NCBI GenBank assembly: GCA_035358815.1
Contig: DAOPQC010000009.1
Location: forward strand, 2,405-66,404
Length of the DNA: 64,000 bases
Source of the DNA: Thermoanaerobaculales bacterium
Lineage (GTDB): Bacteria; Acidobacteriota; Thermoanaerobaculia; Thermoanaerobaculales; Sulfomarinibacteraceae
Direction of reading: 5' to 3'
Below, one piece after another: positions 29,070 through 57,343 of the stretch. The stretch's first letter is position 1. Each line of letters opens with the position of its first letter. The notes under the pieces are model-generated. The model was given only the letters and a program-made list of their open reading frames with translations. It did not search any database and was not told the DNA's origin. The position numbers and the translations under genes were made by a program.

Positions 29070-29278
29070 TCGCCCGCACCCGCGTCCGCGCCCGCTTCCG
29101 CGCCCCCGCCGTTGGGATGTCTCTCGTTCCCGTTCCCGTCCCCGTTCCCGTACCCGATGGCCGTTCGGGGTGGATTGAGTTCGTACGTGAAATTTGGAGA
29201 TTGCTGCGACGTCTGGGCGGCGTGCGGCGATCCGGGAACGGGATCGGGGTGGGGCCCTGGACCCTGACCCCGATCCCC
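29070..29278. repeat. Mosaic intergenic repeat locus A (beta C-array, 34-nt alpha module, unique core, G-arm, 11-bp hairpin)
   Basis: CCCGCN-type array at 29070-29110. Alpha module cgttcccgttcccgtccccgttcccgtacccgat at 29125-29158. Inverted partner atccgggaacgggatcggggtgggg at 29230-29254. Perfect hairpin gggatcggggt (29240-29250) / accccgatccc (29267-29277). Confidence 0.85.
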
Positions 29279-29370
29279 CAACTCCTGGTCAGGCGAATGC
29301 GCTGCAGCGACCCGGAAGCCGGAGGGCGACTGACCTCTGAGGATCGTAGACCGCACCGGGAGGGGGCGCG

Positions 29371-32758: not shown

Positions 32759-33045
32759 TCAATTCCGGGCTCAATTCCGGGCTCCAGACCCCGTTTCGAT
32801 TCCGGACTCTGGGCCGGTGCCCGTCCCCGCTTCCGCTTCCCCTTCCGCTTCCGCGCCCGGACGGTGCTCAGGACGCGGGAAAGCTGCGGGGGTCTTCGAC
32901 TTGCCACCGTGCTGGGCGGTTCGCTTCCAATGACCTACCCCCCAGGTCATCGGTGACCTTGTCGGCCCACACGGGCCCTGGGGGTGCTCAGAATGACCAC
33001 GGACAGAGTCGGAAGCGGGCGCGGAAGCGGGCGCGGACGCGGGCC
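32759..33045. repeat. Mosaic intergenic repeat locus B (12-nt tandem, C-arm, 150-nt core with hairpin, G-arm)
   Basis: tcaattccgggc x2 at 32759-32782. C-arm CGCTTCC-type at 32818-32858. Core hairpin atgacct/aggtcat at 32930-32950. G-arm at 33011-33045. Its bases 33017-33043 are the exact reverse complement of 29079-29105. Confidence 0.85.
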
Positions 33046-33918: not shown

Positions 33919-34500
33919 CTAGCGCGCGGTGATGACGAAGTGGGCGCGCCGGTTGAGGCGCCACGCCTGTTCGCCGCTGCCGACCTCGAACGGCCTCTCC
34001 TCGCCGTACGAGATCGTGCGCAGGCGCTCGGCCCCGACGCCGAGGAAGATCAGGTAGTCGCGCACCGCCGCCGCCCGGCGCTCACCGAGCGCGAGGTTGT
34101 ACTCGCGTGTGTTGCGTTCGTCGCAGTGGCCCTCGATCAGGATCTGGATCGTGCGGTGCTGCTGCAGCCAGGCCGCGTTGCGGGCCAGCGCATCGCGGTA
34201 CTCGGGCTTGATGTCGTAGAGGTTGGTGTCGAAGAAGATGTCCTCGAGGTAGCCGCCGGCGTTGAGCAGCGCGAGGTCCTCGGGCAGCTCTTCGCGGACC
34301 TCCTCGGAAACCAGGGGCTCGGCAGTCGGCTCGCCGACGATCTCCTCCTCGATGCCCTCGGGCCCCTCACCGGTCCCGGGCGTGGTCGCGGTCGGCGTCG
34401 GAGCGGTCGGGGGCGGCACCTTGGTGCTCTTGCAGGCACCGAGGGTGGCCAGGAGGAGCACGGCGATCAGGGCTGCAGCGAGACGGGAAGTGGGTCTCAT
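33919..34500 (-). CDS. pal: Peptidoglycan-associated lipoprotein Pal (OmpA-like domain)
   Basis: Lipobox LLATLGAC. OmpA-C motifs: IFFDTNLYDIKPEY, IEGHCDERNTREYNLALGERRA, and ISYGEE. Confidence 0.9.
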   Translation of the reverse strand: MRPTSRLAAALIAVLLLATLGACKSTKVPPPTAPTPTATTPGTGEGPEGIEEEIVGEPTAEPLVSEEVREELPEDLALLNAGGYLEDIFFDTNLYDIKPEYRDALARNAAWLQQHRTIQILIEGHCDERNTREYNLALGERRAAAVRDYLIFLGVGAERLRTISYGEERPFEVGSGEQAWRLNRRAHFVITAR

Positions 34501-34627
34501 TCGAGGCCTCCTTGACGGTCACTCTACCAGCCCGGATCCGGGCTCACAAGCTCTTGAGAGCTGGTCTCGGCGGGGCGGTGTGGAATCGACGCGCGATGTG
34601 CCCGATGTCACTGGAGGAGAGGATATA

Positions 34628-34768
34628 GGGGATAGGGAATAGGGGATAGGGGAGAGGGGAGAGGGGAGAGGGAACAGGGGATAGGGGAGAGGGAGTAGGG
34701 GAGAGGGCCTAGCTGCCTTGTGGGGTAGCCATCCTGGCTGCCTTGTGGGGTAGCCATCCTGGCTGCCC
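34628..34768. repeat. Mosaic intergenic repeat locus C (12 G-tracts in GGGGA(T/G)A heptamer array + 25-nt tandem repeat)
   Basis: 34628-34707 holds 12 runs of G3-4 separated by 3-4 nt. 34713-34762 is ctgccttgtggggtagccatcctgg x2 (period 25) plus a partial third unit. Confidence 0.9.
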
Positions 34769-34770
34769 AG

Positions 34771-35358
34771 CTACGGGTTCGCGTCGTCATCCGCGAGGAG
34801 CCCGCCGCCGGGACGGTCGAGCCGGCCGGCCCGGTGGAGCTTGGCGAGGTAGTCGTAGACGACGATCGAGCCGGCCACCGCGAGGTTGAGGGAGGGCACG
34901 AGGCCCCACTGCGGGATCTGGACGACGGTCGCCGCGGTCGCGACCAGCTCCTCGGGGATGCCGCCGAGCTCGGCCCCGACCAGGAAGCACGGGCGATCCG
35001 GGTAGCTCGCCTCGAACAGGCCGACCGCGCGCCGGTGCAGCTCCACCGCCACCAGCTGCCAGCCACGCTGCTCGAGGTGCGACCGGAAGGCGCCGGCGTC
35101 GCGAAGGTGGAGAACGGTGGTGTAGAGCTCGGCGGTGCGCGCGGCCTCGACGTTCCAGTCACGCTCCCCGACCAGCAGCACCTCGGTCGCGGCGGTGGCG
35201 TGGGCGGTGCGCACCAGCGAGCCGACGTTGTGCTCCTTGGAGATGTTCCAGGCCGCGATGGCGAACGGCCGCAGCCCGTCGCGGTAGTCCTGGCGGCGGC
35301 GCTGCCGGCGGTCGGCGCGGCGCGCGGCGGTCCACGCGGCCTTCTTGGGATCCACCAT
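34771..35358 (-). CDS. TrmH/SpoU-family RNA 2'-O-methyltransferase
   Basis: SpoU motifs: NVGSLVRTA, FLVGAELGGIPEE, and IPQWGLVPSLNLAVAGSIVVYD. Confidence 0.75.
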   Translation of the reverse strand: MVDPKKAAWTAARRADRRQRRRQDYRDGLRPFAIAAWNISKEHNVGSLVRTAHATAATEVLLVGERDWNVEAARTAELYTTVLHLRDAGAFRSHLEQRGWQLVAVELHRRAVGLFEASYPDRPCFLVGAELGGIPEELVATAATVVQIPQWGLVPSLNLAVAGSIVVYDYLAKLHRAGRLDRPGGGLLADDDANP

Positions 35359-35398
35359 CGGACCCAGGGTAGAGCATGCGGCCGCCGCCGGGAACCAC

Positions 35399-35434
35399 AG
35401 AAAAAACGAAACCCCGCGCGCGGCGGGATTTCGT
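35399..35434 (-). terminator. Rho-independent terminator
   Basis: The minus strand reads acgaaatcccgcc-gcgc-gcggggtttcgt followed by TTTTTT. That is a ~12-bp GC-rich stem and a 6-T run. Confidence 0.75.
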
Positions 35435-35514
35435 CATGGTGGGTATCCCCACCCGGACTTCTTCAGTGGGTTTCGCGGCCGTAAAGTCCGTTGAACACCC
35501 GCGGTCCGAAGGGA
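35400..35514 (-). ncRNA. Candidate ~115-nt structured RNA or attenuating leader (family unknown)
   Basis: Bracketed by the promoter and terminator above. Internal helices: gtcc/ggac, cggactt/aagtccg (7 bp), and ggtggg-gata-cccacc. No convincing ORF. Confidence 0.35.
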
Positions 35515-35521
35515 CACCTCC

Positions 35522-35550
35522 AATATGTGTGCACGCCGCGGCTGTGTCAA
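35522..35550 (-). promoter_or_regulatory. Candidate sigma-70-type promoter
   Basis: On the minus strand: TTGACA (35550-35545), a 17-nt spacer, then CATATT (35527-22). Located inside the cdd/trmH-like gap. Confidence 0.45.
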
Positions 35551-35652
35551 GGGGGCGTGGGAGCTCGTCTTCGGGAGCGAATCCGACCGCGCCGACGGTG
35601 AGACTCCCGGCCGCTGGATGAGCTTGGCTGCAGGCCTCGATCTGCCCGGGGA

Positions 35653-36063
35653 TCAGCCGCGCTCGAGCGTCCGCCCGTCGAAGGCGTGGGGCAGCAGCTG
35701 GGACACCGAGGTGACGACCCGTTCACCGGCCGGGTTGGCCAGGATGACCGGGAAGTCACCGAACTCCGACAGCACCTGCCGGCAGGCGCCGCACGGCGAG
35801 GCCGGCGGCACGGAGTCCGTGACCACGGCGAGCGCCTGGAAGCGGCGAGCGCCGGCGGCCACGGCCGCCGCCACCGCGTTCCGCTCGGCGCAGACCGAGA
35901 GGCCGAACGAGGCGTTCTCGACGTTGCAGCCGCTGCTCAACCGTCGGTCCGGCAGCAGCAGCGCCGCTCCGACCCGAAACTGCGAGTAGGGGGCGTAGGC
36001 GTGGTCCCGCGCCGCGGTGGCCGCTGCGACCAGGCGGTCGATGTCATCAGAAGAGAAATCCAT
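35653..36063 (-). CDS. cdd: Cytidine deaminase
   Basis: ATG 36063. Zinc motifs CAERNA and PCGACRQ. The upstream 46 codons of the track ORF run through repeat DNA. Confidence 0.85.
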   Translation of the reverse strand: MDFSSDDIDRLVAAATAARDHAYAPYSQFRVGAALLLPDRRLSSGCNVENASFGLSVCAERNAVAAAVAAGARRFQALAVVTDSVPPASPCGACRQVLSEFGDFPVILANPAGERVVTSVSQLLPHAFDGRTLERG

Positions 36064-36125
36064 GGCTCCATGATACCGAGCCGAATGAGGTGCGGAGCGC
36101 CCGTTGTCGATTCTGACCTTCTCTC

Positions 36126-36278
36126 GGGAACGGGAACGGGGACGGGAACGACAGCTGGCCGTTGTGGGGTCGCCATCCTGGCTGCCTTGTGGGGTAGCCA
36201 TCCTGGCTGCCCGGAAGCGGGCGCGGGCGAGGGGGCGGGCGGGGGCCCTACCCCCTATTCCCTACATCCCATCCCCTC
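36126..36278. repeat. Mosaic intergenic repeat locus D (alpha G-array, 25-nt tandem, beta G-array, inverted gamma array)
   Basis: gggaacgggaacggggacgggaac at 36126-36149. 36153-36212 is ~95% identical to 34711-34768. ggaagcgggcgcgggcgagggggcgggcggggg at 36213-36245. C-rich ccctaccccctattccctacatcccatcccctc at 36246-36278. Confidence 0.9.
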
Positions 36279-36281
36279 AAG

Positions 36282-36307
36282 AAAAAGGTGACCGCCCGAA
36301 GGCGGTC
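36282..36307 (-). terminator. Probable Rho-independent terminator of the FecR-like gene
   Basis: The minus strand reads gaccgcc-ttcg-ggcggtc, then acc and TTTTTCTT. It lies 40 nt past the stop at 36347. Confidence 0.55.
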
Positions 36308-36346
36308 GATGGAGACGTGTGATGTCGCTTGAGGATCTGGCTGTCG

Positions 36347-38491
36347 TCACCGCCGGTGAGAACCGGACGACGGTCGCGAGCTCGTCGCCCCGCCGCCGGA
36401 GCTCCCCGCGTGCGATCGGGAGGTCGCGCCGCTCCCGGCCGAGCGGGGCGCTGACGAGGAACCGCGAGCCGAGGCCGTCGGGTTGCGAGGCGCGGGCCGG
36501 CTCGAGCTGACGGTCGGGCCGGTGCGGGACGGCGCGGAGCGCGGCACGATCACCGGGCTCTGCGATCCGCCGCCACCTGCCGGCCCCGGCATCACCCGGC
36601 TGCTCGGCGCTCGGTAGCGGGAGCCCAGGTCGACCGGCTGCCGGGCGAGGCTGCCGCCCCTCAGGTAGGGGGACGCAGCCTGCGCGCCTGACGGGCTCCC
36701 GGCCGACGCCGGCCGTGACCGCGGAACGAAGGGGTTGCTGGCGACGGACCCGCTGTGGACCCGGCTGTTCGTCCCCCCGCCGGTGGACGGGCGAGCCGTG
36801 CCTGCTGCCGGCTGCCCGGAACCCCCGTGCAGGGGCGACGACGGCGACGTGGTCAGCACGCGCCGGTCGGTGGCCGTCTCCGCGGCCCGGGGGGCCGCGG
36901 TCCCGCGCGCCGCGGTTGAGCCGGCCGCCGTCTCGCGAGGCGCGTTGGTGCGGACCGTCGTGCTCCGCGATCCGGCCGAGCGCCGCGTGACCGCCTCGAG
37001 GGTCGTCGGCTCGACGAGCCGCAGCGCGTCCTCGCCGCGCAGGCTCGCGTCGCGCGCCATGACCGGTGTGATGTCGCGGGTGGTGCCGCGCTCGACGTCG
37101 CGGAAGACCCGCTCGAGCTCGGCTGACGGGCGCGCCATCGACGGCGGCGCGGTGGCCAGGGCATCGGACATGACGACGCCCATGGCGTCCTGGCCGCGCA
37201 GCGCGCTCTCGCCCGGCTGCACGAGCCGGGACAGGTGCGGGCTCGCGAAGTCCCGGGTCGAGATGACGTTCCAACCGGCGCGGTCGATCCCGGCCACGCG
37301 CACCCGGCCCTTGAGATCGAGCGCCACCTCGTTCGGCCGGGTGATCGCGGCGCGATGGACGTCTCTCGCGGACCCGCCTTCGCCCCCGCTGCCCGGGCGC
37401 GGAATCGCGTCCCGCCGCGGCGGCTGGCCTCCCCCGCCGCCGGGGTGGCCGGGGTAAGGATCGTAGGGGTAGCCGTAGTAGTAGCCGTAGCTCGGCCAGT
37501 ACCATCCCCAGTAGTAGCCGCACGGGGCCCAGCCGACGTAGCCGGGCCACCAGCACCAGCTCACCCAGGCCGGGCTCCAGTAGGGCTGCCAGCCCCAGAC
37601 CCAGCCGAAGCCGGCAGCGAAGTACCACGAGCCGTAGTGGTACGGCAGCCAGCCCCAGGGCTCGTAGGAGATCCACGACCATCCGGGCTCGGTCCAGTAC
37701 CAGCGCCCGGCGGTGTAGGGACGCCACGAGTCGTCCACGGTCGGCTGCCAGGCCCAGGTGTTGTACTCGGAGACGTAGACCCAGTTGCCGTAGTTGTCGA
37801 GCTGGGCGGCCTGGCGGTCGTAGCGGGCGTCGACGTGGACCGCGCTCTCGCCGCGGATGACCTGCCGGCGCTGCTCGACCCAGCTTGCGAAGTCGTCGCC
37901 GATGTTCAGCACGGACTCGGAGCCGACCACCTCGCCGCCGCTCACCAGGGTCGCTGACTGGGCGCGCACGAGCACGCCGCCCGCGATGGTGGAGGCCTCG
38001 GCGAGCCCTTCCCACACCTCGACCCGGAGGCCCTCGGAGGGCAGCGCCTCCACCCGGTAAAGCCCGGTGTCGTTGAGGTAGACGGTGGCGGACCGGCCAT
38101 CGATGCGGACCGGCTGGTTGGTCAACCGATGGGGGCCGACCTCGACCACGATCGTGCCCTCGCCGAGGAACAGCACGGTCTGCTCGGCGTTGACGTCGCG
38201 GCTGAACGCCACGGCGTCGAGGCTAAGGGTCGTGTACTCGTCGATCCAGACCGCGTTCCCGTCGGCGAGCATGACCTCCATCCGCGCCTCGCGGGCGGTG
38301 TCGATGCGGTCCCCCGGAGCGAGCGGCATGTTGATGACGGCCTCGATGCTGTCCTGCTGGGTCGCCGGCTGGACGGTGGCGTAGCGCTCGAGGTAGGAGA
38401 TGTAGCTCAGCGAGGTCAGCTCGTCCCCTTCGGAGGCCAGCAGCGGCCCCGCGACCCCGGCCAGGAGTGCCGTCAGTAGGAGCTTCCTCAT
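36347..38491 (-). CDS. FecR-like domain protein with extreme W/Y-rich segment and ~330-aa low-complexity tail
   Basis: ATG 38491 follows gggaggtgg. Signal peptide MRKLLLTALLAGVAGPLLA. FecR-like beta-rich N-terminal domain. A W/Y/G-rich block (WYWTEPGWSWISYEPWGWLPYHYGSWY...GYYWGWYWPSYGYYYGYPYDPYPG), then an S/P/R/A-rich tail. Confidence 0.6.
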   Translation of the reverse strand: MRKLLLTALLAGVAGPLLASEGDELTSLSYISYLERYATVQPATQQDSIEAVINMPLAPGDRIDTAREARMEVMLADGNAVWIDEYTTLSLDAVAFSRDVNAEQTVLFLGEGTIVVEVGPHRLTNQPVRIDGRSATVYLNDTGLYRVEALPSEGLRVEVWEGLAEASTIAGGVLVRAQSATLVSGGEVVGSESVLNIGDDFASWVEQRRQVIRGESAVHVDARYDRQAAQLDNYGNWVYVSEYNTWAWQPTVDDSWRPYTAGRWYWTEPGWSWISYEPWGWLPYHYGSWYFAAGFGWVWGWQPYWSPAWVSWCWWPGYVGWAPCGYYWGWYWPSYGYYYGYPYDPYPGHPGGGGGQPPRRDAIPRPGSGGEGGSARDVHRAAITRPNEVALDLKGRVRVAGIDRAGWNVISTRDFASPHLSRLVQPGESALRGQDAMGVVMSDALATAPPSMARPSAELERVFRDVERGTTRDITPVMARDASLRGEDALRLVEPTTLEAVTRRSAGSRSTTVRTNAPRETAAGSTAARGTAAPRAAETATDRRVLTTSPSSPLHGGSGQPAAGTARPSTGGGTNSRVHSGSVASNPFVPRSRPASAGSPSGAQAASPYLRGGSLARQPVDLGSRYRAPSSRVMPGPAGGGGSQSPVIVPRSAPSRTGPTVSSSRPAPRNPTASARGSSSAPRSAGSGATSRSHAGSSGGGATSSRPSSGSHRR

Positions 38492-38564
38492 CGTCCACCT
38501 CCCGTTCCGCCAACAGGCAGTGCAACCGACGTGCCAGCGGGATTTCGGGAACGCGGTGCGTTCA

Positions 38565-38940
38565 CCCGTTTCCGTTTCCGTCTCCGCGCCCCTGCCCGAG
38601 ATGGCGCTCGTGCACCGTGCGGTCTCATCGGGGACGGAGACGGGCACGGAGACGGGCAGGGAGACGGGCAGGGACGCGGGCGGCGGCCATTTGACCTGTC
38701 ACCGGTCACCGATCACTCTCCCGGAGGCGGGAACGGGAACGGGAATCCGGCTTCGCCTTCCGGCTCCGTTCGGCGAACTCCGCCGTGACGAGTCGGCTCC
38801 GCCGTGACAAGCGGGGACGGGCACCCTTCGACTCGCGGCGCTGCGGCGCCGCTCGCTCAGGGCAGGCCCCTCGGGCTCGGAAGCGGAAGCGGGCGGGCGC
38901 CCAATCCCCCAGATCCCAGATCCTGGCCGGGTGGGGGCGG
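38565..38940. repeat. Mosaic intergenic repeat locus E
   Basis: C-arm cccgtttccgtttccgtctccgcgcccctgcccg at 38565-38598. 31-nt core. G-arm (GGAGACGGGCA-type) at 38630-38686. gggaacgggaacgggaat at 38729-38746. ggaagcggaagcgggcgggcgc at 38879-38900. cccagat x2 at 38908-38921. Confidence 0.8.
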
Positions 38941-44153: not shown

Positions 44154-45944
44154 TCAGGGGCGCACGAGCCAGCCGGCGGCGGTCCCGTCCTCGAACCCGC
44201 TGCCGAAGATCAGCGAGCCCGGGCCGGAGGGAGTCGGAGTCGGCGGCGGGGTGGGCGTGGCCACCGGCGTGCTGGTCGGCGTGGCGGTGGGCGGTACGGG
44301 CGTCGTCGTCGGAGTCGGGGTGGGAGTGTGGGTCGGCGGCGGCGGGGTGAGTGTGGGTGTGCTGGTCGGCGGCACCGGCGTCGCGGTGTCAGTGGCGGTG
44401 GCAGTGGGTGTCGGGGTGCTGGTCGGCGGCAGCGGCGTCGCCGTGGCGCTTGGGGTCGGCGTGCGGGTCGGTGTGGCGGTCGCGCTGCTGGTCGAGGTCG
44501 GGGTGCGGGTCGGTGTGGCGGTCGGCGGCACCGGCGTCGCTGTGGGGCTCGGCGTCGCCGTGCGGGTGGGCGTCGCCGTGGCGGTCGCGGTGTTGCTCGG
44601 GGTGCGGGTCGGCGTGGGCGTCGCGGTCCGGGTGGGCGTCGGCGTGCTGGTGCGAGTGGGCGTCGCCGTCGGCCCGCTGGTCACCGACAGCTCGAGCCGG
44701 TAGAGCTGGGCGCTGTCGGTGGCGTCGCCGGCGAGCTCGACGAAGTAGGTTCCCGGCCCGCTGGGCAGTGGCACGCTCGGCAGCGCCTCGGGCAGGCCGG
44801 CGCCGTTGGCGTCCGCGAACGCGAGCTCGGTGGTCCCGTTGACGTCGAGCACCCGCAGCGACAGGTCGTGGATGGCGAGCGAGTCGAACGAGCTCCCCGC
44901 GGTGCAGCTGCCGTTCGGGTTCTGGGGGCCGCTCAAGTAGGTCCAGCCGGTCGGCGTGACGGTGATCGAGAGCGAGGCGCCGCTGCCGACGGTGAGGCTG
45001 TAGTCGTCGTAGTCGGAGTCGTCGTCGACCGACAGGTTGTCGATGGTGAGCAGGCCCGTCGGCGTCCCCAGGGGGTACGCCGTGGACGGGTCGTCGTCGT
45101 GCTCGGCGCCGTCGCCGTAGCCGCGGTTGGCGGCCAGGATGTCGTCGTGCTGGGGCCCGTCGAAGGCGCTCGAGTAGTAGGGCTCCATCAGCTTGGTCTG
45201 GTTGACCGGGCAGACATGCTGCAGCCCGAGACCGTGGCCGTGCTCGTGGGCGACCACGTTGCGCAGCCGCAGCGAGTTGCCGGTGGTCACGGAGTAGAAC
45301 GAGTCGCCGGTGTCGATGACCATGTCCCCGACGTCGGGGTAGAAGTTGTAGCCGAGGATGCCGGAGTTGCCGTCGATGGTATGGCCGCCGAAGCGCACGT
45401 CGCCCCGCACGCCGAGTGATCCCGCCGAGTTGACGAAGGCCGCGCCGTCATCGCTCGGCTGGTAGAGGTAGCTGATGCCGGTCAGCTCGCCCCAGCGATC
45501 CAGCACCTGCTGGAGCAGCGCCAGCCAGGTGGCCTCGTCGCCGTAGATCCCGGTCAGGAAGGCGCGCAGGTTGCTTGGCGAGCTCGGCTCACCGGCGTAG
45601 CCGGGGATCGCGGTGCCGTCGGGGACGACGCTCCAGGTCAGGGTGGTGGGGTCGCCCTGGCCGAGCCCGCTGCCGTTGCTGGCCGTGCTCGACCAGCGGT
45701 TGGAGTCCGGGAACTGGTACTCGCCGAGCGGCGGGGCGGAGAGCGAGTGGGTCACCCGGGCCAGGGCGGCCTTCGCGATCGCCTGCTCGACGTACCACTG
45801 CGGGGTGCCGTCCTTGAAGCACAGCGCCGGCGCGGGCGGGGGGCCCGGCTGGGCCGGCGGGCGGTCCGCTGCGGCAGCGCAGGCGGCCGCGAGGAGCATC
45901 GCGATTCCGAGCGCCGCGGGCGCCCCGGGGCGTGCCGTGCTCAT
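44154..45944 (-). CDS. Secreted metzincin (matrixin/M10-like) zinc protease with PPC-like domain and ~150-aa Pro/Thr linker
   Basis: ATG 45944. Signal peptide ...[10 protein letters not shown]. Zinc site [13 protein letters not shown] (HExxHxxGxxH). Pro/Thr repeats. C-terminal tail [19 protein letters not shown]. Confidence 0.8.
44229..44680 (-). repeat. Intragenic low-complexity Pro/Thr (TPTxT) repeat-coding region
   Basis: Encodes [55 protein letters not shown]... The mirror-frame ORF 44065..44703 (GV-rich) is its artefact. Confidence 0.85.
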
Positions 45945-49786: not shown

Positions 49787-49924
49787 CGTTCCCGTTCCCG
49801 TGCCCGCTCCCGTACCCGATGGCGGATTCCTGCCCACTATTGCGCGGAGCCGTGGGAGCCAAGCCGGTTTCACCTCCGTCCTCTTCTGCAATCGGGAACG
49901 GGGACGGGAACGGGAGCGGGAACG
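49787..49924. repeat. Mosaic intergenic repeat locus F (34-nt alpha module, 70-nt core, inverted 34-nt alpha module)
   Basis: cgttcccgttcccgtgcccgctcccgtacccgat at 49787-49820 is 32/34 identical to 29125-29158. atcgggaacggggacgggaacgggagcgggaacg at 49891-49924. The arms are ~85% complementary. Confidence 0.9.
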
Positions 49925-51967: not shown

Positions 51968-51973
51968 CGCTCA

Positions 51974-52410
51974 GGGGATAGCGATGAGGGGATAGGGGCT
52001 AGGGCCCCTGCCCGCCCGCTGCCGGCTGCACGGACGGCTTCGTTCCCGTTCCCGTTCCCGTGCCCGCGCCGATCCGCCTCCGCGCGCGACGTCGTTCCCG
52101 TTCCCGTTCCCGTTCCCGAACCCGCGCCCGCTTCCGCGCCCGGTTCCGAGCGACGTTTCGCTCCCCTTCCCGTTCCCGTCCCCGTTCCCGATCCCGTGTC
52201 CGCTCCCGCTCGTTCGCTCCGTCCTCGAGAGCGCTTCGCGCCGATTCTCTGGAAGCGCTCCCCGAGGGTGCCACCTTTGGCGATTTCGGGTCCTGAGCAA
52301 TTTGTCAGGAGCATCGTCGTCCCGAAATCGCCAAAGATGGCACGCCCGCGGGAGGCGCTTCCCTCGCTCTCTCCTCGTCCCCGGGGAGCGGAAGCGGGTG
52401 CGGGCGCAGC
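51974..52410. repeat. Mosaic intergenic repeat locus G (gamma G-array, three C-rich hexamer arrays, 113-nt imperfect palindrome, beta G-array)
   Basis: Gamma array at 51974-52004. C-arrays at 52041-52070, 52093-52147 and 52164-52212. Palindrome at 52251-52363 with 23-nt arms (52268-52290 / 52321-52343, 1 mismatch) and apical hairpin tcctga/tcagga. gagcggaagcgggtgcgggcgc at ~52385-52410. Confidence 0.9.
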
Positions 52411-52426: not shown

Positions 52427-52879
52427 TTACGAATCGTCCTTGCGGCCGCGCGTGAAGACCTCCTGCCACGCGGCGACCTCGCTCGACGACAGCTTGGCCT
52501 CGGCGCGGGCCCTCGGCGGCGTGGGCCGAGGGCGCGTGCTCCACTCGGCCAGCGTACGGACAGTGGCCCCGCGTTCGCGGGCGCGTCCCGCGAGGCCGCG
52601 GTCGTCGGTCACCACGACCCACTCACGGGCCCTCCGCCCGGCCGGGATCCTGCTGATGATCACGTCGTCGGCGGAGGCGGCGCCGGAGTGGACGATGGTC
52701 ACCCGGCCCAGCGCCTCCTGGGCCGGCGCGCCGGCGGCCGGCGGACCGTCGAACACCACCACCACCGACATCCGCTCGTGTCGGGTCGCCTCCAGCACCA
52801 GCGCGCGAACGGCCGGGCGCGACCGGGCCGATCGCGGGAGACTGTGGAGGAGGTTGGTGCCGTCGACGAGGAGCGGCAT
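52427..52879 (-). CDS. NYN/YacP-like (PIN-fold) predicted RNA-binding nuclease domain protein
   Basis: ATG 52879 overlaps the upstream stop (ATGA). MPLLVDGTNLLH..., VVVFDG, and DDVIISRI...VVVTDDRGL resemble the YacP/NYN layout. Confidence 0.6.
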   Translation of the reverse strand: MPLLVDGTNLLHSLPRSARSRPAVRALVLEATRHERMSVVVVFDGPPAAGAPAQEALGRVTIVHSGAASADDVIISRIPAGRRAREWVVVTDDRGLAGRARERGATVRTLAEWSTRPRPTPPRARAEAKLSSSEVAAWQEVFTRGRKDDS

Positions 52880-54432
52880 CAGCCGCGCTGCTGCTGGGCG
52901 CGGCGCAGCAGGCGCTCGAGCTCGCGCTTGCCGGCCAGCTCCTTGTACATCTGCTTGGCGCGCGGGTTGTCGGGATCCGCGGCGAGAGCCTTCTCGAGCG
53001 CCTTGCGCTCGCGCTCCTGGTTGCGGCGGCGGCGCCAGAACAGCGCCAGCTCGAGCCACGCCTCGACGTGCTCGGGGTCGACCTCGATGGCGCGGCGCAT
53101 CGCCGCCAGGGCGCGATTGGTCCACAGCGGGTTGCGGAGCAGGAGCTGGGCCAGCTTCACCAGCTCTGTGGGTCGGGGGTCGAGCTTGCAGGCGTGCTCG
53201 AGGAGCTGGATCGCGAGGTAGAACTCGCCCTCGCGGACCAGCTCGTCGGCCCGCTTGAGGTTGGCCTCGACGACGGCGCTGCGCGCGCCGACGTCGGCGG
53301 CGGCTCGCTGGGCCGGCTCGGCGAGCCGCTCGCGCTCCTTCTGCACCTCCTGGAGGATCTTGTCGTAGCGCTCACGGCTTCGCCAGTCGGACAGCACCTG
53401 GTGCGCCTCCGTGGCGCGCTCGCAGATCGCCTCCAGCTCGGCGCCGAGGTCCTTGAGGTGTCGCTCCGAAACACGGGCCGGCGAGTACCGCTCCTTGATC
53501 CGCTGCAGGGCCCGATTCACCTCGTCGCGGTCGGCGCCGGGCCGGAGCCCGAGCGCTCCGTAGTGGTCGACGCGCCGGCCTTCCTCGGCAAGCCGCCGGA
53601 TGCTCTGCCGTTCCTGGCGCTGGATCTCGGCGAGCGTCTCCTCCTTCACCGACGGGGTCGCGGCCGGCTGCTCGCCCGGTGCCTGCGGCCGCGCCGGGGC
53701 GGCACGCCGGGTCGCGTCACCGACCGAGACCACGCCGGCCGCGATCAGGGGGTAGAGGGTGGCGATCGCCTGCTCGTCGGGCAGCGCCGAGACCTGGAAC
53801 AGGTCCGAGATCGTCCGCGTGCCCTCGAGGCGGCTCAGCAGGAAGCCCTCGGTCGGGGTGAGGTTGAAGTCCTGCAGCAGGAGGTCGAACTCGCGGGAGC
53901 GCCACACCGTGCGTTCGAGGGAGCCGAGCGCCGCGAGCTTCGCTCGATGGTCGTCGCAGGCGCGGGCCGCGATCAGGATGATCTGCGCGGTGAACAGGTC
54001 GGGCAGGGTGTCAGGCTGTCCCGAGCCCTCCTCGGCGACGTACTCGTAGAACAGGGCCGGCTCCGCCGCCGCTCTCCGGATGATCGCCAGCGTCAGCTCC
54101 TGGAGCTCGCGCTGCAGCACCGCCGCTTCGAGGCTGCCGCGCGCCACCAGGAGATGGCCGAGTGGCGGGGCCTCCTCCCCGCCCTGCGAGAGCAGCGACA
54201 GGGCGCGGTCGTCCTCGCTGATGATGCCGCGGTCCACAAGCCACATCCCGAGCTTTTCGTCCTCGATGCTCGAGCGGGCCGCCCGGATCTCTCCCTTGAC
54301 GAACATGATCTCGCGCCGCGTCCGACTGGTGGCGACGGCGAGGATTCCGGTTGCGGCCTCTCTGGCCAGCCGCGCGAGGTGGTCCGGCAGCGCCGTGCTC
54401 AGCTCGAGCCGCACCACGGAGTCGCCGCTCAT
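52879..54432 (-). CDS. DUF4388-like N-domain / J-domain (DnaJ-like) / TPR protein
   Basis: ATG 54432. N-terminal GILAV....REIMFVKGEIRAA (DUF4388/PATAN-like). The J-domain-like helix pair DHYGALGLRPGADRDEVNRALQRIKERYSP lacks a canonical HPD (has YSP). C-terminal TPR helices. Confidence 0.65.
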   Translation of the reverse strand: MSGDSVVRLELSTALPDHLARLAREAATGILAVATSRTRREIMFVKGEIRAARSSIEDEKLGMWLVDRGIISEDDRALSLLSQGGEEAPPLGHLLVARGSLEAAVLQRELQELTLAIIRRAAAEPALFYEYVAEEGSGQPDTLPDLFTAQIILIAARACDDHRAKLAALGSLERTVWRSREFDLLLQDFNLTPTEGFLLSRLEGTRTISDLFQVSALPDEQAIATLYPLIAAGVVSVGDATRRAAPARPQAPGEQPAATPSVKEETLAEIQRQERQSIRRLAEEGRRVDHYGALGLRPGADRDEVNRALQRIKERYSPARVSERHLKDLGAELEAICERATEAHQVLSDWRSRERYDKILQEVQKERERLAEPAQRAAADVGARSAVVEANLKRADELVREGEFYLAIQLLEHACKLDPRPTELVKLAQLLLRNPLWTNRALAAMRRAIEVDPEHVEAWLELALFWRRRRNQERERKALEKALAADPDNPRAKQMYKELAGKRELERLLRRAQQQRG

Positions 54433-54437
54433 CGCCG

Positions 54438-55580
54438 TCAACCCCCTCCGCTGCCCGCCGCCGCGTCCTCGGTGGGCGACAGCTCGACGGGATGGGGCGT
54501 GAAGCCCTCGAGCATCAGGTGCGCGGGGACGCTGGCGACCGCGCGAGCAGCGGCCTCGCGGCTCGGGAAGTGCCCCCAGATCAGCCGCCAGCACGGGCTG
54601 CCCTCGGCCCCCTCGCTGGCCACTGGTCGCAGGACGTCGGGGTACTGTCGCGCCTTGTTGAGGACGCGCTGCAGCTCTTGCGGCTCGCAGCCCATGTCGA
54701 CCACCAGGCCCCAGTCGCCGGCTGTCGAGGGCGCCTGGGCGGCGCGGTTGGAGCGCAGCCACAGCGCGGTCGCCCCGATGACGATCGCGAGCACCGCTGC
54801 CAGGGCGGCGAGCAGGGCCCAAGCCGGGACGCGCCGGCGCCGGCGCTCCGGGGCGGAAGGAAGCGGCTCCCGCTCCTGCTTCCGCACCGGCTCCGGCACC
54901 GCAGGCTCGGCCGGCGACGCCACCGGGGCCGGCTCGAGCATGCCGGCGGCAACCAGGGCCGCGAGCAGGCTGACAACCTCGCCCTGCCCCTGGGGTGAGC
55001 GACCGGCGATCTCGGCGGCGGTGCGCTGGCCGTTGACCTTGGCAACGATCAGGTCCGCCTCCTCCGACAGCCGAAGCGGCGAGTACAGCTCGAGGAAGTC
55101 GGCGGCCCGGCGCAGCCGGATGTCGAGGTCGGGGAGGATTGCCCGCGTCAGCTGCGGGTCCTGGCTCGACAGCACCAGCTCCACGACCGCGTGGGCGGCA
55201 GAGATGGTCGGCGCATCGGTGCCGGCGACCTCCGAGTCGCTGATCTCGAGCCGGTGCTCGGGGTCGAGCAGCCACGCCGCGAGGGCCTCCTGGACGAGCT
55301 CCTTGACGGTCCCGATCGCGACGGTCTGTGACAGGCCCGGGGCGGCGGCGAGCGCAAGGGCTTCCGCGACGAGGTCGGGGCGTCCAACCGGGCGGCAGCC
55401 GAGGCGGCGGGCAAGCAGGGCCGGGTCCGGTCCCTCGACCGACACGATCTTGCCGCGGGCCAGGCGCAGCACGAGCTCGCCGGTCGAGCCGGAGAGCCGG
55501 ACCTCGCCGGCAGGCCGTCGGGCGAGCCATCGCCCGAGGCGCCAGATCAGCTCGGGATCCCGCATGTCGGACTCCATCAT
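54438..55580 (-). CDS. DUF4388-like N-domain membrane protein with C-terminal SPOR-like domain
   Basis: N-terminal GEVRLSGSTGELVLRLARGKIVSV. Single TM helix (WALLAALAAVLAIVIGATALW). C-terminal beta-alpha-beta block WGLVVDMGCEPQELQRVLNKA...WRLIWGHFPSREAAARA. Confidence 0.5.
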   Translation of the reverse strand: MMESDMRDPELIWRLGRWLARRPAGEVRLSGSTGELVLRLARGKIVSVEGPDPALLARRLGCRPVGRPDLVAEALALAAAPGLSQTVAIGTVKELVQEALAAWLLDPEHRLEISDSEVAGTDAPTISAAHAVVELVLSSQDPQLTRAILPDLDIRLRRAADFLELYSPLRLSEEADLIVAKVNGQRTAAEIAGRSPQGQGEVVSLLAALVAAGMLEPAPVASPAEPAVPEPVRKQEREPLPSAPERRRRRVPAWALLAALAAVLAIVIGATALWLRSNRAAQAPSTAGDWGLVVDMGCEPQELQRVLNKARQYPDVLRPVASEGAEGSPCWRLIWGHFPSREAAARAVASVPAHLMLEGFTPHPVELSPTEDAAAGSGGG

Positions 55581-55631
55581 AAACGGTCTAACGGGCAGGA
55601 GGTATTGCCGGCCTCGTGGCCGGGCGCCTCC

Positions 55632-55660
55632 TTGACAGTCTCGGCAAAGCTTTCTACCAT
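55632..55660 (+). promoter_or_regulatory. Candidate sigma-70 promoter for the tRNA-Val/tRNA-Asp pair
   Basis: TTGACA (55632-37), a 17-nt spacer, then TACCAT (55655-60), ~25 nt upstream of tRNA-Val. Confidence 0.5.
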
Positions 55661-55684
55661 GACCTTCCCAACGGCCAGCCGTTC

Positions 55685-55759
55685 GGGAGGTTAGCTCAGG
55701 GGTAGAGCACCTGCCTTACACGCAGGGAGTCGTGGGTTCAAATCCCCCACCTCCCACCA
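55685..55759 (+). tRNA. tRNA-Val (anticodon TAC)
   Basis: Cloverleaf: acceptor gggaggt/acctccc, D-arm gctcaggggtagagc, anticodon stem cctgc/gcagg with loop ctTACac, T-arm gtggg-ttcaaat-cccac region, encoded CCA. Confidence 0.9.
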
Positions 55760-55780
55760 CCCCTGAGACGGCACGATTGC

Positions 55781-55857
55781 GGGGTCGTAGTTCAGCTGGT
55801 TAGAACGCCGGCCTGTCACGCCGGAGGTCGAGGGTTCGAGTCCCTTCGGCCCCGCCA
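55781..55857 (+). tRNA. tRNA-Asp (anticodon GTC)
   Basis: Acceptor ggggtcg/cggcccc, D-arm gttcagctggttagaac, anticodon stem ccggc/gccgg with loop ctGTCac, T-arm gaggg-ttcgagt-ccctt, discriminator G, encoded CCA. Confidence 0.9.
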
Positions 55858-55872
55858 ACCCAGCCAAACCGA

Positions 55873-55900
55873 GCCGCCCTTCGGGCGGCTTTTCGTTTGT
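55873..55900 (+). terminator. Rho-independent terminator after tRNA-Asp
   Basis: gccgccc-ttc(g)-gggcggc followed by ttttcgtttgt. Confidence 0.75.
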
Positions 55901-56006
55901 CTGGTGGCGGGGCCGAAGGGACTCGGTCACCGCGGAGCCAGCGGGCGGACGTACGCCGCCCACCGCCCTCTCCGGCCCGGCTGACGCCGGGCCTGCGACC
56001 CCCACG
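55886..56006. repeat. 121-nt direct repeat, copy 1 (contains inverted copy of tRNA-Asp 3' end)
   Basis: Base-for-base identical to 56234-56354 (checked by eye over all 121 nt). 55905-55925, tggcggggccgaagggactcg, is the reverse complement of tRNA-Asp 55837-55857. Confidence 0.95.
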
Positions 56007-56078
56007 GCTACGTCCGCACTCCGCTGCCTATCGCGGTGTGCAAGTCCCTTCCCTCGTGACCCCGGCGACCCTGGCGGG

Positions 56079-56130
56079 CGGCTGTTTTCGTTCCGTGGCG
56101 GGGCCTTCGGGACTCGCAGCACCGTCACCT
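56079..56130. repeat. Degenerate middle copy of the tRNA-Asp-derived repeat
   Basis: cggctgttttcgttccgtggcggggccttcgggactcg matches the start of the 121-nt unit, with gaag replaced by ttcg and a different continuation. Confidence 0.7.
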
Positions 56131-56233
56131 GCGCGCTGTCACGGGCAGCCCGCGTTGCGGCCTGCCGGTTCCAGCCTGCGCAGCTGCCGGCGGTGTCGAG
56201 CCCTTCCCTCGTGACCCCGGCGACCCTGGCGGT

Positions 56234-56354
56234 CGGCTTTTCGTTTGTCTGGTGGCGGGGCCGAAGGGACTCGGTCACCGCGGAGCCAGCGGGCGGACGT
56301 ACGCCGCCCACCGCCCTCTCCGGCCCGGCTGACGCCGGGCCTGCGACCCCCACG
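56234..56354. repeat. 121-nt direct repeat, copy 2
   Basis: Identical to 55886-56006 at an offset of 348 nt. Preceded by the 32-nt block 56201-56232, identical to 56046-56077. Confidence 0.95.
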
Positions 56355-56579
56355 CCCTCTGAAACTGCGAATGTGTCCATGTCGGCCCCGGCACGCAATT
56401 GGCGCGAAGGCCCCAGCGATCCACAGGGTCAAGAATCACCGGGTGCGCGAACGCGGCGCAGACCTCCGCCCAAGCCTCCGCACGCACGATCGGGGTCCTC
56501 CTCAACTGTCCGTTCACGGTGTGAGGTCGAGATACCTGAGAATCTCACACTTCAGCCAGACACTCCTTCTGGGGGTGCC

Positions 56580-56939
56580 TCAGGGCTCGCGGCGGAGGCC
56601 GAGCTGGATCGAGATCGCGCGGTCGAGGGCTTCGAGCTCGCCGGCTTCGAGGAGGCCAAGGCGCTTGCTGATGCGGTGCCGGGCAACCGTGCGAAGCTGG
56701 TTGGCGACCGCACGGGAGGGCTTGGCGAGGCCGCTCGACGTCGGGCCGACGCGGCTTTCGTAGGGTCGGAGGGGGCGGTCGGGCAGCGATGTCACGGGCA
56801 CGATCTGGAGCACCGCGTCGAGCCGGCAGGCGACGTCGTTCGAGACGACGACCGCCGGGCGGGTCTTCCGGATCTCTCGACCCTCTGCCGGGTCGAAGCG
56901 GACCAGGACGACGTCGCCTCGGCGGAGCTCGGGGGTCAC
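56580..56939 (-). CDS. mazF: Type II toxin, PemK/MazF-family endoribonuclease
   Basis: RGDVVLVRFDPAEGREIRKTRPAVVVS... and the QIVPVTS pattern. The GTG start overlaps the antitoxin stop (GTGA). Confidence 0.8.
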   Translation of the reverse strand: MTPELRRGDVVLVRFDPAEGREIRKTRPAVVVSNDVACRLDAVLQIVPVTSLPDRPLRPYESRVGPTSSGLAKPSRAVANQLRTVARHRISKRLGLLEAGELEALDRAISIQLGLRREP

Positions 56940-57178
56940 TCGTCGACCTCCGCGTCAGCCGCTTCCCACTCGGCGGCCAGCTCTGCCGCTTCGTCCCGGT
57001 CCTCGGTGTACGCCACCTCGAGCTGTCGCTCGAGCAGCCGGGCGCGGTACTCGCGGACCGCCTCGCACACGACGGCACTGGTGTTCGGGACCTCGTACAA
57101 GAACGTCGCCACATCAGGGTCGACCGTCACGGTGATGCGCTTCTTGCCCACTGCCGGATCCTCCGGTGAGATGATCAT
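56936..57178 (-). CDS. Putative MazE-like/RHH antitoxin
   Basis: 80-aa acidic-tailed protein (KKRITVTVDPDVATFLYE... then a DE-rich C-terminus) translationally coupled to mazF. Start ATG 57178 is uncertain. Confidence 0.6.
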   Translation of the reverse strand: MIISPEDPAVGKKRITVTVDPDVATFLYEVPNTSAVVCEAVREYRARLLERQLEVAYTEDRDEAAELAAEWEAADAEVDE

Positions 57179-57343
57179 AGCATACGAAATGTCATATGAA
57201 CAATACGCACACTGCGATTCCAGCGACGCCATCTGTCCGCCGGCGGGATCGAATGTGAATCGTGGCTGAGGTTCGGCCGGACGGTGGAATGGTCCGAGGC
57301 CGGTACAATGGCCGGGTTTCGAGCCCGTCGTATCGGAGAGGAC

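What the first reader, a model, noticed from the sequence alone, without database searches (positions are those of the whole stretch)
36126..36278. Locus D: all four module types packed into 153 nt (alpha-delta-beta-inverted gamma)
The order is GGGAAC array (36126-36149), delta tandem (36153-36212), beta array (36213-36245), then C-rich gamma in the opposite polarity (36246-36278). A terminator hairpin for the upstream minus-strand gene follows immediately (36282-36307).

The G-rich to C-rich switch at 36245/36246 (gggggccc) creates a long imperfect fold-back. This locus is the best template for defining module boundaries.
Basis: seen in the sequence. Interest (0 to 1): 0.55.

Follow-up and report, generated by a model that had tools for sequence, protein, structure and literature searches.

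The report
Mosaic intergenic repeat in an acidobacterium
Locus D is one copy of a lineage-specific patchwork of short non-coding repeats (G-rich 6-base arrays, a REP-like hairpin, a C-rich 7-base cap) in the untranscribed gap between one gene's terminator and the next gene's promoter; it resembles the REP/BIME repeats of E. coli in an unstudied group, and its function is unproven.

Summary
All four blocks and the minus-strand terminator sit at the stated coordinates and are far beyond chance. The locus is identical in six independent assemblies.

The interpretation needs revision.
- Alpha and beta are one class: G-rich hexamer arrays with CGG every 6 nt.
- Delta is a different kind of thing: a GTGG/GTAG-tagged REP-like hairpin, 8 bp, with compensatory changes across 39 variants.
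- Gamma is a C-rich heptamer cap.
- At least two more modules (epsilon, zeta) exist.
- The "long fold-back" is only a ~10-bp hairpin, no better than shuffles.

Delta's junctions recur in 8-10 other sources. The same spacer in seven close relatives keeps the design: a G-rich arm antisense to cdd, its head near the cdd promoter, its cap at the terminator. The content differs in each (delta x0, 1 or 2; epsilon; zeta; an IS3-like insertion). A more distant relative has an empty site.

The element lies downstream of a terminator and upstream of a probably leaderless promoter, so it acts, if at all, as DNA.

Best reading: a BIME-like mosaic that evolves by slippage, insertion and conversion. An insulator or G-quadruplex role is unproven. 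No RAYT was found in the little DNA held. Interest is moderate.

The parts
35653..36063 (-). cdd (cytidine deaminase), the gene downstream of the element
   Evidence: Pfam dCMP_cyt_deam_1 at 8.4e-18. The identical protein lies on 23 contigs, and NCBI names it as from a Thermoanaerobaculales bacterium.
36070..36075 (-). -10-like hexamer TATCAT ending 6 nt before the cdd ATG; probable leaderless promoter (inferred)
   Evidence: TATCAT, TATGAT, TATAGT or GATAGT sits at the same 6-nt distance in all 10 orthologous loci. cdd has terminators on both sides, so its promoter must lie between 36064 and 36290.
36064..36125 (.). unique 62-nt segment between the cdd start and the head of the element
   Evidence: It is 31-62 nt long in relatives.
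36126..36149 (+). alpha: (GGGAAC)x4 hexamer array, the head of the G-rich arm
   Evidence: G4Hunter score 1.62. Relatives carry 2-5 copies at the same place.
36150..36161 (+). linker GACAGCTGGCCG, a degenerate 3' half of a delta unit
   Evidence: GCCAGCTGGCCG in L180 and GACATCCGGGCG in L001, L009, L026 and L044.
36162..36211 (+). delta: two head-to-tail 25-nt REP-like units, each TT-GTGG-[8-bp stem GGTAGCCA/TGGCTGCC, loop TCC]
   Evidence: The covariance model gives 43.4 and 40.1 bits. The hairpin is 94.3% paired across 39 distinct variants, and 5 of 8 pairs show compensatory changes.
36212..36245 (+). beta: G-rich hexamer array (CGGAAG CGGGCG ...) ending in GGGGG
   Evidence: G4Hunter score 2.06.
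36246..36278 (+). gamma', the cap: C-rich ~7-nt units, the reverse complement of the GGGGATA-type arrays at 34616-34707 and 51972-52005
   Evidence: G4Hunter score -1.97. It is replaced by (TCACCTA)n at the orthologous site in L009, L175, L180 and L181.
36282..36307 (-). intrinsic terminator of the upstream FecR/DUF6600 gene
   Evidence: 7-bp stem (6 of them GC), loop of 4, then ACCTTTTTCT. It is conserved in L009, L175, L176, L177, L180 and L181.
36347..38491 (-). FecR/DUF6600 gene upstream (714 aa)
   Evidence: Pfam. A 714-aa product is called in six assemblies.

Best explanation
Locus D is one copy of a lineage-specific family of mosaic non-coding DNA repeats in an acidobacterial lineage. 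The source MAG is labelled Thermoanaerobaculales; related MAGs are labelled Holophagae.

Anatomy. The scaffold is a polar 'arm':
- G-rich hexamer arrays with CGG every 6 nt (alpha and beta are two flavours of this);
- a switch through GGGGG|CCC;
- a short C-rich heptamer array (the gamma' cap).
Embedded in the hexamer scaffold is 'cargo'. Here the cargo is two head-to-tail copies of delta, a GTGG-tagged stem-loop of the REP (repetitive extragenic palindrome) type. At other copies it is epsilon or zeta modules.

Position. At this locus the arm fills the gap between the intrinsic terminator of the FecR-like gene and the core promoter of cdd. The cdd mRNA is probably leaderless. The element is therefore DNA that is normally not transcribed. 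It is not an RNA gene, a UTR or a coding sequence.

How it evolves:
- Shown: replication slippage changes unit number (+35 bp, five heptamers, between strains at locus C).
- Shown: cargo modules are present or absent between species.
- Shown: whole cassettes are replaced between strains.
- Inferred: delta spreads like other REPs, through a Y1/RAYT-type transposase acting on the hairpin with insertion into the hexamer arrays.

Effect on the cell. The most likely effect, inferred at low confidence, is the one proposed for REP/BIME: structure-prone DNA (cruciform, G-quadruplex, H-DNA) that buffers or insulates the promoter from the upstream transcription unit. It may equally be tolerated selfish DNA in a safe site.
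For: - Repeats are real and non-random and identical in six assemblies.
- Delta matches the GTAG/GTGG-tagged REP definition of Di Nocera et al. 2013 (PMC3733652): a tag, then a 6-9-bp stem.
- The delta hairpin is kept by compensatory changes: 94.3% paired, 36 double-change cells, 0 of 500 shuffles as good, and slid controls collapse.
- The conserved context CGGGCG|delta|CGCGGAAGCGG occurs in about 20 of 61 distinct delta sites across several MAGs, always with the G-rich strand on delta's TTGTGGGG strand.
- The orthologous FecR>cdd spacer in seven close relatives (cdd 83-85% aa identity, or 80-86% nt identity in the flanks) keeps head, polarity, cap and terminator. Content varies: delta x2, x1 or x0; epsilon; zeta; duplication of alpha-delta-beta; an IS3-like insertion.
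- L176 (73% identity) has only 40 nt between the cdd start and the terminator (an empty site). L175 lacks locus C altogether.
- Strain polymorphism at locus C: +35 bp, and delta-delta replaced by an inverted beta array.
- Position: a terminator at 36290-36307 upstream and another at 35405-35435 downstream of cdd, plus a conserved -10-like hexamer 6 nt before the ATG.
- No Rfam family matches.
- No Pfam hit for the overlapping plus-strand ORF.
Against: - No RAYT/Y1 transposase was found, although only 0.41 Mb was searched, with a distant E. coli query.
- Delta copies are head-to-tail at a fixed 25-nt period. That arrangement is rare for REPs (PMC3733652).
- No insertion event of delta was caught between near-identical strains. 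Locus D is invariant in all six.
- No clear 'before and after' target-site pair was obtained.
- Retention of the same architecture at the same site in at least seven species could mean selection for a function. This explanation leaves that open.
- Nothing here shows that G-quadruplexes, cruciforms or protein binding occur.
- The promoter and leaderless assignment is sequence inference only.
Confidence: 0.6

Rival explanations
1. The arm is a selected DNA-level regulatory or insulating device. G-quadruplex/H-DNA-prone arrays plus cruciform-prone hairpins sit between a terminator and the next promoter. They absorb supercoiling, block read-through or set promoter activity. The sequence is free to drift as long as the G-rich polar design is kept.
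For: - Architecture, polarity and position are kept in at least seven species while the sequence turns over.
- More distant relatives carry different arrays, (AATTCGA)n then (GGGT)n, at the same place next to the terminator.
- G4Hunter scores are 1.62, 2.06 and -1.97. Isolated modules prefer G4 folds in ViennaRNA.
- In the window, 4 of 5 caps abut the 3' end of the upstream gene and heads face the downstream gene.
- Regular (G3N3)4 motifs are about 190-fold over expectation.
Against: - Empty or short spacers in L176 and L178, and loss of locus C in L175, show the element is dispensable.
- The distance from head to ATG varies (31-62 nt).
- The cap-to-3'-end rule fails at about a third of the other loci with crude gene calls.
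- Many hexamer units have only GG (CGGAAG, CGGAGA), so G3 runs are not the conserved feature.
- In the whole-locus fold, Watson-Crick pairing beats G4.
- The genome as a whole has fewer G4-prone windows than shuffles (55 against 176).
- There are no expression or structure data.
Confidence: 0.22
2. The element works as RNA: a 3'-UTR stabiliser, a Rho-loading (C-rich rut) site, or a small RNA, as proposed for REPs at the ends of E. coli transcripts.
For: - The delta hairpin shows covariation.
- The minus-strand RNA of the locus folds better than shuffles (z = -3.0).
- At locus C the delta hairpins and a 92-nt C-rich, G-poor tract directly follow the spoU stop codon, where no intrinsic terminator is found. 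That would suit Rho loading.
Against: - At locus D the element lies downstream of a canonical intrinsic terminator and upstream of the -10 of a probably leaderless gene, so little transcription should cross it.
- No Rfam hit even at E<=1.
- Content differs between close species.
- The orientation of G-rich against C-rich strands relative to transcription differs between loci (locus A against locus D).
Confidence: 0.1
3. It is nothing more than independent local microsatellite growth in GC-rich spacers. There is no family, no mobility, and the shared order arose by chance.
For: - (GGGAAC)3 alone is a generic simple repeat, found in more than 120 viral contigs.
- Slippage demonstrably occurs.
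- Relatives have other unit types.
Against: - Non-repetitive junction and linker sequences recur at unrelated loci and in different MAGs: GACATCCGGGCG, CGCGGAAGCGG, and the 50-nt zeta module.
- The delta 25-mer is identical at dozens of sites.
- Arrays are 14-fold over a Markov expectation and confined to spacers.
Confidence: 0.05

Closest known systems
BIMEs (bacterial interspersed mosaic elements) of E. coli and other enterobacteria
   Same: - Extragenic mosaics that combine a REP hairpin with other short conserved motifs in variable numbers and orders.
- Found between genes, often after terminators.
- Variable between strains.
- Thought to act on DNA topology or transcript ends.
   Different: - BIME REPs alternate in orientation (Y/Z). 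Here delta is head-to-tail at a fixed 25 nt.
- The partner motifs here are polar G-rich hexamer arrays and a C-rich heptamer cap, not the A/B/L/S/l/r motifs.
- Different phylum.
- No IHF, gyrase or Pol I binding is known.
- The sequences are unrelated.
GTAG-tagged REP superfamily / REPIN-RAYT systems (Di Nocera et al. 2013, PMC3733652; Bertels and Rainey 2011, PMC3116915)
   Same: - Delta has a GT(G/A)G tag, then a 7-8-bp GC-rich stem and a 3-nt loop.
- Variant stems are kept by compensatory changes.
- Several sequence types coexist.
- Inverted doublets (REPIN-like) occur in a related metagenome contig (L028).
- The GTGG tag variant is reported for the Opitutus terrae GTAG-20 family.
   Different: - No RAYT gene has been found so far.
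[quoted passage not shown]
- That survey does not list GTAG REP families in Acidobacteria.
- Delta sits inside hexamer arrays with conserved flanks.
Bacterial G-quadruplex motifs in intergenic or promoter regions (e.g. Paracoccus nas promoter, PMC5123632; survey PMC12563890)
   Same: - Alpha, beta and gamma are textbook (G3N3-4)4 or longer runs.
- They are intergenic and close to gene starts.
   Different: - Here they are dispersed, polar, copy-number-variable arrays that form part of a mosaic.
- G3 is not strictly conserved.
- No function has been shown.
BoxC / G/C-rich intrastrand-triplex motif TM of E. coli (Holder et al. 2015, PMC4666352)
   Same: A G/C-rich, non-B-prone repeated motif, abundant in many bacterial genomes, whose loci are unusually rearranged between strains.
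   Different: TM is a single short motif. It is not an array-plus-hairpin mosaic, and the sequences are not similar.

Membership tests
GTAG-tagged REP (delta only) | Short (20-40 bp) extragenic stem-loop with a 6-9-bp stem | tested here: met
   8-bp stem (one G.T), 3-nt loop, 25-nt unit. All four copies in the window are intergenic.
GTAG-tagged REP (delta only) | Unpaired GTAG (or GTRG/GTGG) tag at one end | tested here: met
   TT-GTGG- precedes the stem. GTAG occurs in variants from L028, L043 and L049. The GTGG variant is accepted in PMC3733652.
GTAG-tagged REP (delta only) | High copy number in the genome | tested here: inconclusive
   4 copies in 64 kb, and 84 model hits in 321 kb of loci that were selected for containing delta. 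The whole genome is not available.
REPIN-RAYT system | A cognate single-copy RAYT (Y1/HUH transposase) gene, usually flanked by the REPs | tested here: inconclusive
   tblastn with E. coli RayT against 412 kb gave a best E of 0.18. The query is distant and covers a small part of the genome. A proper test needs the whole MAG.
REPIN-RAYT system | REPs paired in inverted orientation (REPIN) | tested here: not met
   Both delta arrays in the window are head-to-tail. Inverted doublets are seen only in another organism's contig, L028.
BIME | REPs of alternating orientation combined with the defined extra-REP motifs; binds IHF or gyrase | tested here: not met
   The orientation is direct and the partner motifs differ. 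Protein binding is not testable here. This is an analogy only.
MITE | Terminal inverted repeats and target-site duplication | tested here: not met
   The ends (alpha against gamma') pair only over about 10 bp with a bulge. No direct duplication flanks 36126-36278.
G-quadruplex-forming sequence | At least four G3+ runs with loops of 1-7 nt | tested here: met
   Real formation in DNA is not testable with these tools.
CRISPR array | Direct repeats separated by unique spacers of similar length | tested here: not met
   Delta units abut with no spacer.
Rfam RNA family | Match to a curated covariance model | tested here: not met
   No hit at gathering thresholds in the window, and none at E<=1 in 34400-36500.
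Phase-variable (contingency) SSR | Unit-number change between close strains, located inside a coding sequence or between -35 and -10 | tested here: not met
   Locus D is invariant in six strains. The change at locus C (+35 bp) lies upstream of the -35 of the ompA-like promoter.

The most novel reading that the evidence does not exclude
The polar arm (a G-rich CGG-phased hexamer scaffold ending in a C-rich heptamer cap) is a previously undescribed kind of bacterial terminator-to-promoter spacer. On this reading it is maintained by selection for its design rather than its sequence across a whole acidobacterial order, with lineage-specific units such as (AATTCGA)n-(GGGT)n in more distant members. 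It would serve both as an insulator made of non-B DNA and as the preferred landing pad for REP-like hairpins.
Probability: 0.15. Interest if true: 0.7.

Novelty: new variant of a known kind. Interest (0 to 1): 0.42.

Why it matters
REP/BIME-type repeats are well studied only in Proteobacteria. Their origin and use are still debated.

This is an uncultured acidobacterial lineage, common in activated-sludge and digester metagenomes. It fills the longer gene spacers across half of this window (29-52 kb) with a different mosaic that has clear rules: polarity, a cap, and conserved junctions.

The element persists at one orthologous site across species while its content turns over. That gives a natural series for measuring gain, loss and slippage of such elements. 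It also allows a test of whether G4-prone arrays next to promoters matter in bacteria.

In practice, these arrays create spurious ORFs (for example 'GSQDGYPT' peptides). They are also likely break points in short-read assemblies of these MAGs.

Tried and rejected
- Rfam, at gathering thresholds and at E<=1: nothing at the locus.
- Viral contigs scanned with the delta 21-mer: 0 hits, so there is no sign of phage origin.
- Viral contigs scanned with (GGGAAC)3: more than 120 hits. The hexamer alone is a generic simple repeat, this was uninformative, and loci L055-L134 were not used.
- RAYT search by tblastn: no hit. ORFs next to delta clusters are lipA/tmk, a MazF-type toxin-antitoxin pair and ordinary genes, not transposases.
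- The long fold-back at the G/C switch: rejected (z = -0.36).
- G4 as the conserved constraint: weakened. Many units carry only GG. The whole-locus minimum-energy fold is Watson-Crick. The genome as a whole is depleted in G4-prone windows compared with shuffles.
- The rule 'cap always faces a gene's 3' end': holds for 4 of 5 cases in the window but is mixed elsewhere.
- Coding potential: the overlapping plus-strand ORF has no Pfam hit, and 25-nt unit changes between species break any reading frame.
- Literature searches for these sequences or for such repeats in Holophagae, Thermoanaerobaculia or Acidobacteria found no description.

Full report
**1.

- (GGGAAC)x4 at 36126-36149;
- a 12-nt linker at 36150-36161;
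- two full 25-nt units TTGTGGGGT(C/A)GCCATCCTGGCTGCC at 36162-36211;
- G-rich hexamers at 36212-36245;
- a switch GGGGG|CCC at 36245/36246;
- C-rich ~7-nt units at 36246-36278;
- a minus-strand intrinsic terminator, with its stem at 36290-36307 and the tail ACCTTTTTCT.

Tandem Repeats Finder reports all three arrays. None of this is chance:
- the delta unit gives 4 matches against 0 expected;
- GGGAACGGGAAC gives 26 against 0.43;
- (G3N3)3G3 gives 17 against 0.09;
- arrays of at least three CGGRNN units give 18 against 1.3, all inside seven intergenic spacers between 29 and 52.4 kb.

The 286-nt spacer is identical in six contigs from independent assemblies.

**2. Setting**

- The window has 70.8% G+C.
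- The cdd protein is named by NCBI as from a Thermoanaerobaculales bacterium MAG.
- The closest genomes that carry delta are MAGs labelled Holophagae/Acidobacteriota.
- Both flanking genes are on the minus strand: a FecR/DUF6600 gene (36347-38491) and cdd (35653-36063).
- cdd has an intrinsic terminator upstream (36290-36307) and another downstream (35405-35435). Its promoter must therefore lie between 36064 and 36290.
- A -10-like hexamer (TATCAT; TATGAT, TATAGT or GATAGT in relatives) ends exactly 6 nt before the ATG in all ten orthologous loci examined. This suggests a leaderless mRNA. That is inference from sequence.
- The element then lies from about -63 to -215 relative to the start. It is downstream of a terminator and upstream of a core promoter, so it is DNA that should rarely be transcribed.

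**3. What the modules are**

*Alpha and beta* are one class: G-rich hexamer arrays with CGG every six bases (CGGGAA, CGGAAG, CGGGCG, CGGGCA, CGGAGA ...). They run into one another at 52095-52148.

*Gamma* is a heptamer array (GGGGATA/GGGGAGA at 34616-34707). At locus D it appears as its reverse complement and forms a C-rich cap.

*Delta* is different in kind.
- Its layout is TT-GTGG-[GGTAGCCA]-TCC-[TGGCTGCC]: a tag followed by an 8-bp stem and a 3-nt loop.
- This is the layout of the GTAG-tagged REP superfamily. The survey of that superfamily explicitly accepts GTRG and GTGG tags and 6-9-bp stems (PMC3733652).
- I built a covariance model from 15 variants. It found 84 copies, 39 of them distinct, in 39 sources.
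- The stem is paired in 94.3% of cells. Five of eight pairs show changes on both sides (for example C-G 20 / G-C 16, and A-U 24 / U-A 10). No shuffle out of 500 reaches this, and sliding the partners destroys the pairing.
- One caveat: the alignment was fitted to the model.

*Two further modules* recur in the same spacers, so 'four module types' is incomplete:
- epsilon: ..GGCTTCG..GCCGTGACGAG;
- zeta: CCCTTCGACTCGCGGCGC-N-CGCTCGCTCAGGGCAGGC.

**4. Are the junctions reproduced?**

Yes. The exact 21-mer of delta was found in 15 stretches of GTDB genomes and 31 metagenome stretches. It was found in no viral contig.

The flanks were not part of the search pattern, yet:
- about 20 of 61 distinct sites read ...CGGGCG | delta | CGCGGAAGCGG...;
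- the G-rich strand of the arrays is always on the strand that reads TTGTGGGG.

Counts over a non-redundant 326 kb:
- linker->delta in 8 sources (0.0 in shuffles);
- delta->beta in 10 sources (0.2 in shuffles);
- alpha->linker in 5 sources (1.2 in shuffles);
- zeta->beta in 5 sources (0.0 in shuffles).

The junction beta-GGGCGGGG(G)CCC-cap is seen by eye at about ten loci, in either orientation. My regex for that junction was not specific.

**5. The fold-back claim fails**

- The 76 nt around the G/C switch fold at -19.7 kcal/mol, against -18.9 +/- 2.2 for shuffles (z = -0.36). They form only a ~10-bp hairpin.
- The whole locus folds somewhat better than shuffles: z = -2.1 as plus-strand DNA and -3.0 as minus-strand RNA.
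- That is due to the terminator, the delta hairpins, and a weak pairing of alpha with the cap.

**6. Comparative evidence: the most informative part**

*Between strains (99.5-100% identical flanks).*
- Locus D does not vary.
- Locus C (34616-34767) does. One strain has five extra heptamers (+35 bp). Another has a short gamma array followed by an inverted beta array in place of the two delta units.

*Between species.* L009 is syntenic with 36.2-44.1 kb of the window at 80-86% nt identity. The FecR>cdd spacer in relatives reads as follows, with cdd amino-acid identity to the window in brackets:
- L180 [84%]: alpha5 - linker - delta1 - beta - epsilon - (CCACTGCC)n - beta8 - (TCACCTA)n - terminator.
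- L044: alpha2 - linker - delta1 - beta, then an IS3-like transposase inserted where the cap should begin.
- L009: (alpha3 - linker - delta - beta) x2 - zeta - beta - (TCACCTA)n - terminator.
- L175 [83%]: alpha4 - epsilon x3 - beta - (TCACCTA)n - terminator. No delta.
- L181 [84%]: twelve beta-type hexamers - (TCACCTA)5 - terminator. No alpha and no delta.
- L179 [85%]: beta ... beta - cap.
- L177 [74%]: (AATTCGA)4 - (GGGT)n - terminator.
- L176 [73%]: 40 nt, then the terminator. This is an empty site.
- L178 [65%]: 51 nt.

Locus C is absent from L175, where the spacer is 108 nt.

Close relatives therefore keep the design: a G-rich arm antisense to cdd, its head 31-62 nt from the ATG, and a C-rich cap against the terminator. 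The content is different every time. Delta, epsilon and zeta behave as cargo inside a hexamer scaffold. The element as a whole is dispensable.

**7. How it most likely works**

Shown:
- it is a repeated, extragenic mosaic;
- delta is a structure-constrained hairpin of REP type;
- arrays change by whole units;
- modules come and go between species;
- the locus lies between a terminator and a promoter.

Inferred:
- delta spreads as REPs do, through a Y1/RAYT-type enzyme acting on the hairpin, with the hexamer arrays as preferred targets;
- the arrays grow and homogenise by slippage and conversion.

I could not find a RAYT. tblastn with E. coli RayT against the 412 kb held gave nothing, and genes next to delta clusters are ordinary. 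This is a weak test.

A cellular role is possible. The candidates are buffering of supercoils, insulation of the promoter, or G4/H-DNA formation. G4Hunter gives 1.62, 2.06 and -1.97, and isolated modules prefer G4 folds. The conserved design speaks for such a role. Against it:
- empty sites exist;
- spacing is variable;
- many units have only GG;
- the genome as a whole is depleted in G4-prone windows relative to shuffles (55 against 176).

An RNA-level role is unlikely at this locus because of its position and the lack of any Rfam match. At locus C, however, the delta hairpins and a 92-nt C-rich tract directly follow the spoU stop codon and could load Rho.

**8. Comparison with what is known**

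- It works like a BIME (a REP hairpin plus other motifs in variable mosaics). It is not a member: delta is head-to-tail and the partner motifs are simple-sequence arrays.
- Delta fits the sequence definition of a GTAG/GTGG-tagged REP. The REPIN-RAYT criteria are unmet (inverted pairing) or inconclusive (cognate transposase).
- Head-to-tail dimers are described as rare among REPs.
- That survey lists GTAG REP families in Proteobacteria, Cyanobacteria, Chloroflexi and the PVC group, but not in Acidobacteria.
- A 2025 tool counts generic REP-like palindromes in three Acidobacteriota genomes (PMC12306157).
- I found no description of this mosaic.

**9. Verdict**

This is a real, well-delimited, ordinary-in-kind but undescribed repeat family. 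I file it as a new variant of a known kind, of moderate interest. The module taxonomy and the fold-back idea are not.

Noticed in passing
window 35400-35551, minus strand: Candidate small RNA or 5' leader between cdd and the SpoU-family methyltransferase gene. It has a promoter CTTGACA-N17-CATATT, a transcript of about 115 nt, and an intrinsic terminator (35435-35405) with a T6 tail. Promoter, body and terminator are conserved in relatives with 65-100% cdd identity. RNAalifold gives 4 helices and 34 pairs, 3 of them with compensatory changes. There is no Rfam hit at E<=1.
   Followed up: partly
window 36061-36075 (-) and orthologues in L009, L044, L175-L181: cdd appears to be leaderless. A -10-like hexamer ends exactly 6 nt before the ATG in all ten loci.
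   Followed up: partly
window 34517-34545 (-): Promoter TTGTGA-N17-TAGAGT upstream of the OmpA-family gene (33919-34500). It is conserved in L175-L178, and the 17-nt spacer contains a palindrome AGCCCGGATCCGGGCT.
   Followed up: partly
L176 and L177 (spacers around cdd, spoU and ompA): More distant relatives (cdd 73-74% identity) carry a different set of short arrays in the same spacers: (AATTCGA)n or (GAATTCG)n, followed by (GGGT)n G-runs. Filling spacers with short arrays may be a trait of the whole order.
   Followed up: no
L005, L011, L040 (Bythopirellula MAGs and a metagenome contig): The exact delta 21-mer occurs in planctomycete DNA of 56% G+C, next to another REP-like hairpin (AGGCTAGAAGCCTATAC). 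The same hairpin sequence therefore occurs in two phyla. Hits in L006, L023 and L048 look like chance matches inside coding sequence (..GVAILAA..).
   Followed up: no
L028 10170-11230: A MazF/PemK-type toxin-antitoxin pair is bracketed by clusters of delta-type hairpins arranged as inverted (REPIN-like) doublets.
   Followed up: no
L044 about 1-520: An IS3-family-like transposase (integrase-core-like translation, read by eye, no domain search run) is inserted at the beta/cap junction of the orthologous locus D.
   Followed up: no
window loci A (29071-29285), B (32818-33045), E (38563-38925), F (49789-49922): Many spacers hold two arms head-to-head: C-rich hexamers on the left and G-rich hexamers on the right, around a unique centre of 40-150 nt. 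At loci A and F, (GTTCCC)n GTACCCGATGGC ... about 75 nt ... (GGGAAC)n. At locus F the right-hand (GGGAAC)5 ends 6 nt before the ribosome-binding site of the next gene.
   Followed up: partly
window 44239-44671: Complex G/T-rich tandem repeat with periods of 12, 24, 42, 57 and 99 nt. The plus-strand frame reads (GV/AV)n. It was not established whether it is coding.
   Followed up: no
window 1-29000 and 52500-64000: There are no CGGRNN arrays at all outside 29-52.4 kb. I did not check whether this reflects operon density or regional differences.
   Followed up: no
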